The notes beneath the pieces are model-generated. The model had not been told where the DNA came from. It ran no database searches and saw only the letters and a list, made by a program, of their open reading frames with translations. This document shows positions 12,281-12,757 of a stretch of DNA of 29,030 bases, in pieces (position 1 is the stretch's first letter; each line of letters begins with the position of its first letter). This stretch comes from a virus, in IMG/VR virus record IMGVR_UViG_3300048609_000057, positions 1 to 29,030 of that record; one strand, written 5' to 3'. Made by a program: the position numbers and the translations under genes.

Positions 12281-12757
12281 ATGGATGATTACACCGAGAA
12301 AAAACTCAGCGAACTTCGAGACGAACTACGCAAAGCGAAGTCTAAAAGACTACTTCGAGTTCTGCTCTGGGGAATAACAGGAGCTGTTGTCTTCTTAGGT
12401 CTCGTCATTCTAACCTTTTGGGCATGGCCCAAATACCGTGTTTACAGCCAACAGAAGGCCGGCGAGGCCGCGTTGAAGAAAGCCGAATTCGAGCGCCGCA
12501 CGATGGTAGAAACAGCGCGCGCAGAAAAGGACTCAGCGGTGTTCAAGGCTGAAGCGGAGATTGAACGCGCTAAAGGTGTTGCTGAAGCAAACCGTATCAT
12601 CGGCGCATCGTTGAAAGACAACGACGCCTATTTGCGTTACTTGTGGGTTCAAGGTCTCAACGACGGGTCTACTGAGACCATCTACATTCCCACAGAGGCA
12701 AACCTGCCGATCTTGGAAGCGACAAGACGACGAGAAGAACCTACATCAATCAAGTAG
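12281..12757 (+). CDS. Single-pass membrane protein with an SPFH/band-7 (stomatin/HflC)-like C-terminal region
   Basis: 158 aa. A TM helix is LLRVLLWGITGAVVFLGLVILTFWAW. The C-terminus, ERAKGVAEANRIIGASLKDNDAYLRYLWVQGLNDGSTETIYIPTE, follows the stomatin/HflC tail pattern (A.A..I.a..L..NP.YL.L..le......ntiv.P). A GAGGT SD precedes the ATG. Confidence 0.5.
   Translation: MDDYTEKKLSELRDELRKAKSKRLLRVLLWGITGAVVFLGLVILTFWAWPKYRVYSQQKAGEAALKKAEFERRTMVETARAEKDSAVFKAEAEIERAKGVAEANRIIGASLKDNDAYLRYLWVQGLNDGSTETIYIPTEANLPILEATRRREEPTSIK

What the first reader, a model, noticed from the sequence alone, without database searches (positions are those of the whole stretch)
12281..12757. Small membrane-anchored SPFH/band-7-like protein encoded directly downstream of MVP
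SPFH proteins oligomerise into cages and rings on membranes. One is encoded next to a vault-shell gene whose shoulder domain shares the SPFH fold. This is either a striking coincidence or a functional pairing. At 158 aa it is much shorter than canonical stomatin or HflC and retains mainly the TM helix plus the C-terminal coiled-coil/tail motif.
Basis: partly seen in the sequence, partly recalled or inferred. Interest (0 to 1): 0.5.

Follow-up and report, generated by a model that had tools for sequence, protein, structure and literature searches.

The report
Tail-only stomatin-like phage membrane protein
This small phage gene encodes a membrane anchor fused to the ring-forming tail of stomatin/prohibitin (SPFH) proteins without the SPFH domain itself; it belongs to a widespread, uncharacterised family of phage accessory genes, and its position next to the vault-protein gene is incidental.

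Summary
The ORF is real: 12281-12757 on the + strand, 158 aa. It lies 122 nt downstream of an MVP-like gene at 9522-12158.

It has no SPFH (Band_7) domain. It consists of one transmembrane helix, a long helix, a short helix and a conserved C-terminal strand.

This tail is homologous to the post-SPFH tail (CC1-CC2-beta9) of genuine SPFH proteins:
- The family profile aligns to the last 75 residues of Haloarcula virus HCTV-8 gp74, which has a Band_7 domain (1.6e-34). hhalign gives 97.8% probability, E 1.2e-12.
- Reciprocal PHROG hits link it to QmcA, HflK and HflC.
- The four best PDB hits are prohibitins and QmcA.

The family is large (phrog_11227): 1301 clusters at 50% identity, 344 IMG/VR contigs and 88 GenBank phages. 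It sits in varied contexts and has no recurrent neighbour.

The pairing with MVP is not conserved:
- None of 165 other MVP loci carries the gene.
- None of about 160 other family loci carries MVP, apart from one 92%-identical relative of this phage.
- Three syntenic relatives lack the 1.2-kb cassette that contains the gene.

Most likely it is a mobile accessory gene whose product oligomerises into a membrane-anchored ring, or joins host SPFH cages. That mechanism is inferred, not shown. Overall verdict: the SPFH-like call is partly right and the MVP pairing is not supported.

The parts
12281..12757 (+). CDS of the 158-aa tail-only SPFH-like membrane protein, stop codon included
   Evidence: ORF list. 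Matches phrog_11227 at 2.8e-47. 2626 homologues. 11 synonymous vs 2 non-synonymous codon changes against L261.
12267..12273 (+). Shine-Dalgarno-like GGTGAGG, 7 nt before the ATG
   Evidence: Read from the sequence. Identical in relative L261.
12281..12355 (+). N-terminal charged helix, aa 1-25 (7 K/R in the 15 residues before the TM segment). Probably cytoplasmic. Length varies across the family.
   Evidence: Alignment A1 shows a variable N-terminus. Charge count. AF2 predicts a helix with pLDDT 85-93.
12359..12427 (+). Single transmembrane helix, aa 27-49 (VLLWGITGAVVFLGLVILTFWAW)
   Evidence: Kyte-Doolittle mean 2.4 for the best 19-residue window. The same feature is present in 203 family members.
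12428..12445 (+). Conserved P-x-Y-x-V-Y junction, aa 50-55, directly after the TM helix
   Evidence: P50 is invariant and Y52 nearly invariant.
12446..12613 (+). CC1-like long Ala/Glu-rich helix, aa 56-111
   Evidence: AF2 helix 2-111 with pLDDT >90. Aligns to QmcA 193-243, to prohibitin CC1 and to HCTV-8 gp74 216-249.
12623..12661 (+). CC2-like short helix, aa 115-127 (DAYLRYLWVQGLN). Contains invariant Y117, L118, Y120, L121, W122 and L126.
   Evidence: AF2 helix 115-127. Invariant columns.
12662..12721 (+). Beta9-like C-terminal strand and tail, aa 128-147 (DGSTETIYIPTEANLPILEA)
   Evidence: Aligns to QmcA SKVVMMPLEASS and to gp74 EGKTIYLPSDETPTL. Extended with low pLDDT in the monomer model. 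Y135, T138, E139, P143 and E146 are invariant.
12512..12736 (+). Stretch (aa 78-152) that aligns to the last 75 residues of a genuine SPFH protein
   Evidence: hhalign of A1 vs HCTV-8 gp74: probability 97.8%, E 1.2e-12. BLASTP 35% identity over 74 aa. gp74 matches Band_7 at 1.6e-34.
12167..12260 (+). Long hairpin (12167-12252) followed by CUUUUU, between the MVP stop codon and the gene. Terminator-like.
   Evidence: RNA fold -54.2 kcal/mol, z -3.5, no shuffle folds as well. Conserved in L261 with an A-U to G-C double change. The simple terminator scan did not call it.
12159..13352 (.). 1.2-kb cassette (hairpin, this gene, ORF 12778-13116, ORF 13113-13349). Absent from syntenic relatives, where MVP is followed directly by the YpsA-SLOG gene.
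   Evidence: tblastn synteny with L003/L004/L180-L182. The cassette is present in the 92%-identical L261.
9522..12158 (+). Neighbouring MVP-like gene (878 aa). This is context, not a demonstrated partner.
   Evidence: Pfam MVP_shoulder 3.4e-30 and Vault_3 3.1e-11. Homologues in 101 viral contigs and 297 bacterial stretches.

Best explanation
The gene is a stand-alone, horizontally mobile phage accessory gene. Its product is a tail-only derivative of a prohibitin/HflC/stomatin-type SPFH protein. A single N-terminal transmembrane helix is fused, through a conserved P-x-Y-x-V-Y junction, directly to the CC1 helix, CC2 helix and beta9 strand that follow the SPFH domain in full-length family members. 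The SPFH alpha/beta domain itself is missing.

In solved SPFH cages, exactly these tail elements form the side-by-side helical wall, the bent roof and the ring of parallel strands that hold the oligomer together. I therefore infer that the protein oligomerises through them into a membrane-anchored ring or dome that fences off a patch of host membrane.

Shown: the architecture, the homology of the tail, purifying selection, the phage/mobile-element distribution, and the lack of any conserved gene partner.

Inferred: the oligomerisation, the topology (N-in/C-out for this copy by the positive-inside rule) and the biological role.

Its position 122 nt downstream of the MVP-like gene results from a lineage-specific 1.2-kb cassette. 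It does not indicate a functional pairing.
For: Homology of the tail:
- tblastn of the protein against 50,697 phage records hits the C-termini of haloarchaeal-virus 'SPFH superfamily' proteins at about 1e-6.
- One of them, HCTV-8 gp74 (290 aa), matches Band_7 at 1.6e-34 over residues 33-228.
- Its residues 216-290 align to the family profile with hhalign probability 97.8%, E 1.2e-12, and by BLASTP at 35% identity.
- The window protein hits phrog_200 at 3.3e-6 on profile positions 274-349 of 379. phrog_200 is the HflK/HflC/QmcA family, at 1e-29, 7e-30 and 9e-17.
- E. coli QmcA 187-281 hits the family's own phrog_11227 at 2.8e-5.
- The four best PDB hits of the family profile are PHB2, PHB1, PHB2 and QmcA, all in the post-SPFH region.
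- hhalign of A1 vs QmcA gives E 6e-4 over 81 columns, ending on the C-terminal strand.
- E. coli HflC 219/223-300 hits family genes in six loci at about 1e-4.

No SPFH domain:
- No Pfam hit for the protein or for any of 48 members.
- AF2 predicts an all-helical model followed by an extended tail.

Role of CC1/CC2/beta9 in cage assembly: PMC12624060.

Mobile accessory gene:
- 344 IMG/VR contigs and 88 GenBank phages.
- Prophage and integrase contexts.
- No neighbour cluster is shared by more than 8 of 82 loci.

Independence from MVP.
Against: - Oligomerisation was not tested. Only a monomer could be modelled, and Foldseek found no match for it.
- The SPFH domains also contribute lateral contacts in known cages, so a tail alone may not be enough to close a ring.
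- Topology is ambiguous across the family: the N-flank has more K/R than the C-flank in 94 members, the same in 58 and fewer in 51.
- The adjacency to MVP is retained in the one close relative available, so a lineage-specific link cannot be formally excluded.
- No experimental study of this family was found.
Confidence: 0.55

Rival explanations
1. Poison or adaptor subunit of host SPFH cages. The tail intercalates into host HflK/C, QmcA or stomatin rings through CC1/CC2/beta9 contacts. Because it lacks the SPFH domain, it opens, caps or mis-assembles the cage. This would alter FtsH- or NfeD-linked membrane proteolysis, or membrane microdomains, during infection or lysogeny.
For: - The tail is homologous to host-type tails: QmcA, HflC and prohibitins.
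- Known SPFH cages are often hetero-oligomers of paralogues with diverged tails, and CC2 contacts decide incorporation (PMC12624060).
- The gene has no phage-encoded partner. Full-length SPFH genes lie nearby in only 2 of 92 loci.
- It occurs as a moron-like gene in temperate phages and prophages.
- HflK/C-FtsH controls lambda CII (established knowledge; cited in PMC10269572).
Against: - The tail is much more conserved within the phage family than between the family and any host SPFH tail. Family members share 50-74% identity across phages of very different hosts, including 63% with copies in Woesearchaeota MAGs. Identity to host tails is about 27-35%.
- That pattern fits self-assembly, or a universal target, better than co-assembly with host-specific partners.
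- hhalign against E. coli HflK and HflC single sequences was not significant.
Confidence: 0.2
2. One reading: a functional partner of the adjacent MVP-like protein, for example a membrane tether or co-assembling cap for a phage vault-like shell.
For: - Same strand, 122 nt apart.
- The adjacency is kept in L261, a 92%-nt-identical relative.
- The MVP shoulder has an SPFH-like fold (weak Band_7 hit at 2.5e-4).
- This copy has a 25-residue, probably cytoplasmic, N-terminal helix that most family members lack.
Against: - 0 of 5, then 0 of 160, MVP loci (80 bacterial, 80 viral; 2.5 Mb in all) contain a family member within 6-10 kb, with positive controls recovered.
- 0 of 82 viral family loci and 0 of 67 other metagenome loci contain MVP. 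The closest homologues (74-72% identity) have none either.
- In three syntenic phages, MVP is followed directly by the SLOG gene.
- A stable hairpin plus U-run lies between the two genes.
- hhalign of the family profile against this MVP finds nothing.
- The predicted N-in/C-out topology puts the conserved tail on the side of the membrane opposite a cytoplasmic MVP (inference).
Confidence: 0.04
3. An inner-membrane spanin subunit (Rz-like i-spanin): an N-terminal TM helix and a periplasmic coiled coil that, with an outer-membrane lipoprotein partner, fuses the membranes at lysis.
For: - The same gross architecture: an N-terminal TM helix plus a coiled coil of about 150 aa.
- Weak hits to Rz-like PHROGs for this ORF (0.071) and the next ORF (0.034).
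Against: - Those E-values are at noise level, compared with 2.8e-47 for phrog_11227.
- There is no lipobox-bearing ORF within or next to the gene.
- No holin or endolysin appears among the neighbours.
- In SPN1S the gene lies between the terminase and portal genes on the opposite strand.
- The tail is 50-70% conserved across unrelated phages, unlike spanins (established knowledge).
- It is homologous to the SPFH tail.
- Copies occur in archaeal MAGs, which have no outer membrane.
Confidence: 0.02
4. A generic TM-plus-coiled-coil protein unrelated to SPFH (FliL-, GspM-, PilO- or ATP-synthase-b-like). On this reading the SPFH similarity would be a compositional artefact of Ala/Glu-rich helices.
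For: - Weak hits to GspM (0.057), V-ATPase E (0.23) and ATP synthase b (0.23-1.4).
- One JGI name is 'FliL'.
Against: - The alignment to gp74 and QmcA runs collinearly through the non-repetitive CC2 and beta-strand motifs to the very C-terminus.
- The four best PDB hits, out of 177,635 distinct sequences, are all SPFH proteins in the same region.
- The profile hits are reciprocal.
Confidence: 0.03

Closest known systems
PHROG phrog_11227. GenBank phage proteins in this family are annotated 'membrane protease subunit', 'protease' or 'stomatin-like protein', e.g. in Klebsiella phage vB_KpM_FBKp24, Erwinia phage PhiEaH1, Salmonella phage SPN1S, Synechococcus phage S-PM2 and Caulobacter phage CcrColossus.
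   Same: Same family: E 2.8e-47, covering residues 27-152, and 37-53% identity by tblastn. Same length class and the same TM-plus-tail architecture.
   Different: This copy has a longer charged N-terminus. It is the only one found next to an MVP gene. The family name 'protease' comes from annotation transfer from 'membrane protease subunit HflC'. No protease domain is present.
Full-length prohibitin/HflC-type SPFH proteins (phrog_200; Pfam Band_7 PF01145), e.g. Haloarcula virus HCTV-8 gp74, E. coli QmcA, HflC and HflK, and human PHB1/PHB2.
   Same: An N-terminal membrane anchor. A homologous CC1-CC2-beta9 tail running to the C-terminus.
   Different: The roughly 160-residue SPFH1/SPFH2 alpha/beta region is absent. 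Only about 6 residues lie between the TM helix and the start of the CC1-like helix, and about 28 before the alignable tail. There is no NfeD or FtsH-type neighbour.
Major vault protein (the neighbouring gene)
   Same: Both relate in some way to the SPFH world: the MVP shoulder has an SPFH-like fold, and both families form, or are inferred to form, large rings.
   Different: No detectable sequence relationship between the two. No co-occurrence elsewhere. MVP is soluble, whereas this protein is membrane-anchored.
Rz-type i-spanins
   Same: An N-terminal TM helix followed by a coiled coil, of similar size.
   Different: No o-spanin partner, no lysis cassette, a strongly conserved sequence, and homology to SPFH tails.

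Membership tests
SPFH / Band 7 superfamily (stomatin, prohibitin, flotillin, HflK/C) | An SPFH (Band_7, PF01145) alpha/beta domain | tested here: not met
   No Pfam hit at E<=1 for the protein. None of 48 family members hits any Band_7 model at E<=5. AF2 predicts an all-helical model plus an extended tail. The positive control, HCTV-8 gp74, hits Band_7 at 1.6e-34.
SPFH / Band 7 superfamily | An N-terminal membrane anchor | tested here: met
   Hydrophobic segment at residues 27-49. The equivalent segment is present in 203 members, with mean KD 2.5.
SPFH / Band 7 superfamily | A post-SPFH CC1 helix, CC2 helix and C-terminal beta9 strand homologous to those of family members | tested here: met
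   hhalign probability 97.8%, E 1.2e-12, against the gp74 tail. QmcA E 6e-4 over 81 columns. Top four PDB hits are PHB2, PHB1, PHB2 and QmcA. Reciprocal PHROG hits.
SPFH / Band 7 superfamily | Assembly into a large ring or cage on a membrane | not testable with these tools
   Only monomer prediction was available. Testing this needs multimer modelling, BN-PAGE or cryo-EM.
SPFH / Band 7 superfamily | Frequent operon partner (NfeD) or association with an FtsH-type protease | tested here: not met
   No gene cluster recurs in more than 8 of 82 family loci. Neighbours with Pfam annotation show no NfeD or FtsH.
PHROG phrog_11227 (phage 'membrane protease subunit'-like small proteins) | A full-length match to the family profile | tested here: met
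   E 2.8e-47, residues 27-152 on profile positions 12-134 of 138. 26 invariant columns are shared with 47 homologues.
Rz-like i-spanin | An embedded or adjacent o-spanin lipoprotein gene, and a lysis-cassette context | tested here: not met
   The lipobox scan over 12100-13400 finds only a 36-aa antisense ORF. No holin or endolysin among the neighbours.
   0 of 165 other MVP loci. 0 of 82 viral and 0 of 67 other metagenome family loci. Only the 92%-identical relative L261 shares the arrangement.

The most novel reading that the evidence does not exclude
The tail-only family could be a natural minimal cage module. On this reading, a TM helix plus CC1-CC2-beta9 is enough to build an SPFH-less dome on the host membrane, or to cap and hijack host HflK/C- or stomatin-type cages. 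Phages of many hosts would use it as a host-takeover or superinfection-exclusion device, for example by sequestering FtsH or fencing off DNA-entry sites.

A still more speculative, lineage-specific version is that the extra cytoplasmic N-terminal helix of this copy tethers the phage's vault-like MVP shell to the membrane. I put that version at about 0.03.
Probability: 0.25. Interest if true: 0.6.

Novelty: new variant of a known kind. Interest (0 to 1): 0.3.

Why it matters
For this window, the result removes an attractive but unsupported idea: that a phage vault protein comes with an SPFH-like membrane partner.

More generally, it flags a very widespread phage and mobile-element family: more than 1300 clusters at 50% identity, with no Pfam or NCBIfam model, mislabelled 'protease'. 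The family consists only of the oligomerisation tail of SPFH proteins on a membrane anchor.

If it self-assembles, it would show which parts of SPFH proteins are sufficient for cage formation. If it joins host cages, it would be a new kind of phage interference with membrane quality control. Both outcomes can be tested with simple expression experiments.

Tried and rejected
- **Pfam on the protein and on 48 family members:** nothing relevant.
- **NCBIfam:** only noise, GspM at 0.057.
- **PADLOC defence models:** none.
- **Foldseek of the AF2 monomer against PDB:** 0 hits, as expected for a long single helix.
- **hhalign of the family profile against E. coli HflC and HflK single sequences:** not significant.
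- **hhalign against the neighbouring MVP:** nothing.
- **Pfam on the ten longest family representatives (195-276 aa):** no hidden SPFH or other domain.
- **Rfam on 11800-13400:** only chance-level hits.
- **Simple promoter/terminator scan:** no promoter found, and the long hairpin was not called.
- **Neighbourhood clustering of 82 family loci:** no recurrent partner.
- **Search for full-length SPFH genes beside family genes:** only one lineage, L067/L068.
- **Search for SPFH genes beside MVP genes:** one weak HflK-like hit in 160 loci.
- **Literature searches:** no functional study of this family. Only annotation-level remarks turned up, such as Burkholderia phage CSP3 orf75 described as an 'HflC family' moron.
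- **Spanin reading:** rejected.

Full report
**1. The observation**

The ORF 12281..12757 (+ strand, ATG, 158 aa) is present as described. A GGTGAGG ribosome-binding motif lies 7 nt upstream.

The gene upstream on the same strand (9522..12158, 878 aa) is a major-vault-protein homologue: Pfam MVP_shoulder 3.4e-30, Vault_3 3.1e-11, and a sub-threshold Band_7 hit on the shoulder. The two genes are 122 nt apart.

The window is a phage fragment. Its genes include an SNF2 helicase, a PD-(D/E)XK nuclease, an N6/N4 DNA methylase, a DUF4326 protein, a YpsA-SLOG protein and an ADP-ribosylglycohydrolase. Close relatives lie on IMG/VR viral contigs of about 150 kb.

**2. The gene is real and constrained**

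- It has 2626 homologues at E<=1e-3 in the 90%-clustered database.
- It has 1301 clusters at 50% identity, of which 835 are at E<=1e-10. Nearly all are 112-230 aa long.
- A 48-sequence alignment (A1) has 26 invariant columns, concentrated in the C-terminal 55 residues. The consensus there is AEANxIIGxSLKxNDAYLRYLWIQGLQDGSSEVIYIPTEANLPILEA.
- A metagenome contig 92% identical in DNA (L261) carries the same gene with 13 nucleotide differences, giving 11 synonymous and 2 non-synonymous codon changes.

**3. Architecture**

- Residues 1-25 are charged and helical.
- Residues 27-49 are a hydrophobic transmembrane segment.
- P50-x-Y-x-V-Y55 is a conserved junction.
- AlphaFold2, run with the family alignment, gives one continuous helix 2-111 (pLDDT mostly above 90), a second helix 115-127, and an extended low-confidence tail 128-158.

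There is no space for a globular domain. Pfam finds nothing for this protein, and no Band_7-type hit for any of 48 members, even at E<=5.

By the positive-inside rule this copy should be N-in/C-out, with 7 K/R before the TM segment and 3 after it. The family as a whole is ambiguous on this point.

**4. Relationship to SPFH proteins**

The signal exists.

*Profile hits in both directions*
- The protein hits phrog_11227 (labelled 'protease') at 2.8e-47, and phrog_200 at 3.3e-6 on profile positions 274-349 of 379.
- phrog_200 is the SPFH family. E. coli HflK, HflC and QmcA hit it at 1.7e-29, 6.6e-30 and 9.3e-17.
- Reciprocally, QmcA residues 187-281 hit phrog_11227 at 2.8e-5.

*Solved structures*
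- Searching the A1 profile against 177,635 PDB sequences gives PHB2 (0.0039), PHB1 (0.0057), PHB2 (0.018) and QmcA (0.037) as the four best hits. All matches fall in the post-SPFH coiled-coil region.
- hhalign of A1 against QmcA gives E 6e-4 over 81 collinear columns. It ends with SEVIYIPTEANL aligned to SKVVMMPLEASS.

*The decisive link*
- Plain tblastn against GenBank phages hits, at about 1e-6, the C-termini of haloarchaeal-virus proteins annotated 'SPFH superfamily'.
- One of these, HCTV-8 gp74 (290 aa), has a Band_7 domain (1.6e-34, residues 33-228).
- Its last 75 residues align to A1 with hhalign probability 97.8%, E 1.2e-12, and to the window protein with 35% identity.
- E. coli HflC 219/223-300 also hits family genes in six loci at about 1e-4.

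*What this means*
The protein corresponds to a full-length SPFH protein from which the SPFH1/SPFH2 region has been removed (roughly gp74 residues 33-190), leaving TM-CC1-CC2-beta9. Even the '...AW-(E)P-' junction after the TM helix looks alike in the two proteins (this is only a resemblance).

It therefore fails the defining test for SPFH membership, which is the domain. It is nonetheless homologous to the part of SPFH proteins that builds the wall, roof and strand ring of the cages. That role is described for Erlin1/2 and PHB1/2, where CC2 contacts are critical for assembly (PMC12624060).

**5. The pairing with MVP**

I tested the pairing from both sides.

*Starting from MVP loci*
- The first five MVP loci were two IMG/VR lineages at 62% and 42% identity and two 'huge phage' records. 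None contains a family member within 6-10 kb.
- An alignment of these MVPs (A2) retrieved 80 bacterial loci, mostly Myxococcota with up to 57% identity, and 80 viral loci.
- A six-frame hmmsearch with the A1 profile over these 2.5 Mb found nothing even at E<=10. The positive controls scored 1e-52 to 1e-64.

*Starting from family loci*
- None of 82 viral family loci (+/-8 kb) contains MVP.
- None of the 67 other metagenome loci does either.
- The same holds for the contexts of the closest homologues (P0002 at 74%, P0005 at 72%), a prophage copy and the Woesearchaeota copies.

*Synteny*
- In three syntenic phages (L180/L181 and L182; MVP 62% and 56% identical) the order is g4891 ... DUF4326, g8984, g9202, MVP, and then directly the YpsA-SLOG gene.
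- The window carries an extra 1.2 kb at 12159-13352. It holds a hairpin, this gene and two small ORFs.
- Only L261, essentially the same phage, shares this cassette.

*Other points against a link*
- The intergenic region forms an 86-nt hairpin (-54 kcal/mol, z -3.5) followed by CUUUUU. It is conserved in L261 with an A-U to G-C double change. It looks like a terminator after MVP, although the simple scan did not call it.
- hhalign finds no similarity between the family and this MVP.

The adjacency is therefore best read as incidental.

**6. What the family is**

It is overwhelmingly phage- or mobile-element-borne.

- It occurs in 344 IMG/VR contigs.
- It occurs in 88 GenBank phages, including Klebsiella, Serratia and Erwinia jumbo phages, Salmonella SPN1S-like temperate phages, Synechococcus S-PM2, Caulobacter CcrColossus, and Achromobacter, Acinetobacter and Vibrio phages.
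- One copy lies in a prophage next to the terminase gene on a 4.8-Mb contig.
- Another lies in an integrase-flanked island in Woesearchaeota MAGs.

Clustering the neighbours of 82 loci gives no partner shared by more than 8 loci. Full-length SPFH genes are nearby in only one lineage. PADLOC has no match.

I found no functional study. The literature offers only annotation-level remarks on phage 'HflC-like' morons.

**7. Mechanism**

*Shown:* a membrane anchor plus a conserved, SPFH-homologous oligomerisation tail under purifying selection, acting without a conserved phage partner.

*Inferred, and the reading I consider most likely:* the tail drives homo-oligomerisation into a ring or dome anchored by its TM helices, enclosing a patch of membrane. 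The very high conservation across phages of unrelated hosts argues for self-packing constraints or a universal target. Family members share 50-74% identity, against about 30% with any host tail.

*Main rival:* intercalation into host HflK/C-, QmcA- or stomatin-type cages as a domain-less subunit. This would perturb FtsH- or NfeD-linked proteolysis or membrane microdomains. It is attractive because HflK/C-FtsH governs lambda CII stability (established knowledge).

*Considered unlikely:*
- The spanin reading fails for lack of an o-spanin gene or a lysis context.
- The generic coiled-coil reading fails because the alignments run collinearly through non-repetitive motifs.

**8. Verdict**

The 'SPFH-like, tail-only' interpretation is supported as homology but not as SPFH-domain membership. 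The MVP pairing is not supported.

The gene is one more member of an already catalogued but uncharacterised phage family (phrog_11227). That family is a truncated variant of SPFH proteins. Interest is modest.

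Noticed in passing
window 9522-12158; L100-L259: MVP homologues are far more common in viruses than the two reported in preprint 10.1101/2023.11.10.566534. I found 101 IMG/VR contigs, many of 100-500 kb, plus the huge phages LR756500 and LR756501. There are also 297 stretches in bacterial genomes, the closest being Haliangiales, Kofleriaceae and Nannocystaceae MAGs at 53-57% identity. This suggests a Myxococcota host, or a Myxococcota source for this phage's MVP.
   Followed up: partly
window 12167-12260: An 86-nt hairpin (-54 kcal/mol, z -3.5) followed by CUUUUU sits right after the MVP stop codon. It is conserved in L261 with an A-U to G-C compensatory double change. 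The syntenic phage L003 has a shorter GC-rich hairpin at the same place.
   Followed up: partly
window 12159-13352 vs L180-L182: A 1.2-kb three-gene cassette is inserted between MVP and the YpsA-SLOG gene, relative to three syntenic phages. It contains this gene, ORF 12778-13116 (a soluble coiled-coil protein) and ORF 13113-13349 (phrog_2293, unknown function). The two small ORFs have no homologues in any other locus examined except L261.
   Followed up: partly
window 13353-13871 and 15166-16107: A YpsA/DprA-like SLOG protein (weak ShosA-like PADLOC hit, 9e-5) and an ADP-ribosylglycohydrolase (1e-65) lie just downstream. The SLOG gene follows MVP directly in three relatives, and lies within 8 kb of MVP in 6 of 80 viral MVP loci.
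   Followed up: no
L001 (Salmonella phage SPN1S, NC_016761.1) 4983-5357: The RefSeq CDS SPN1S_0003 'protease' (65 aa) covers only the C-terminal half of the family ORF. The full ORF, including the TM helix, is about 124 aa and lies on the strand opposite the terminase and portal genes, in a moron-like position. The label 'protease' is an annotation-transfer artefact.
   Followed up: partly
L092-L094 (Woesearchaeota MAG contigs): Copies in DPANN-archaeal MAGs are 63% identical to the window protein and lie about 4 kb from a tyrosine integrase and a PemK toxin. Either there has been cross-domain mobility with unusually strong conservation, or the contigs are mis-binned.
   Followed up: no
L095 10454-10753; L097 5785-6102: A DUF5658 (PF18902) small protein lies immediately downstream of the family gene in one jumbo-phage-like contig. 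It lies seven genes upstream in the contig of the closest homologue. This may be coincidence.
   Followed up: no
L067/L068 about 5860-6370: This is the only lineage in which a full-length SPFH-domain gene (HflC-like or gp74-like) lies about 2 kb upstream of a tail-only gene. It could be a natural full-length plus tail-only pair.
   Followed up: no
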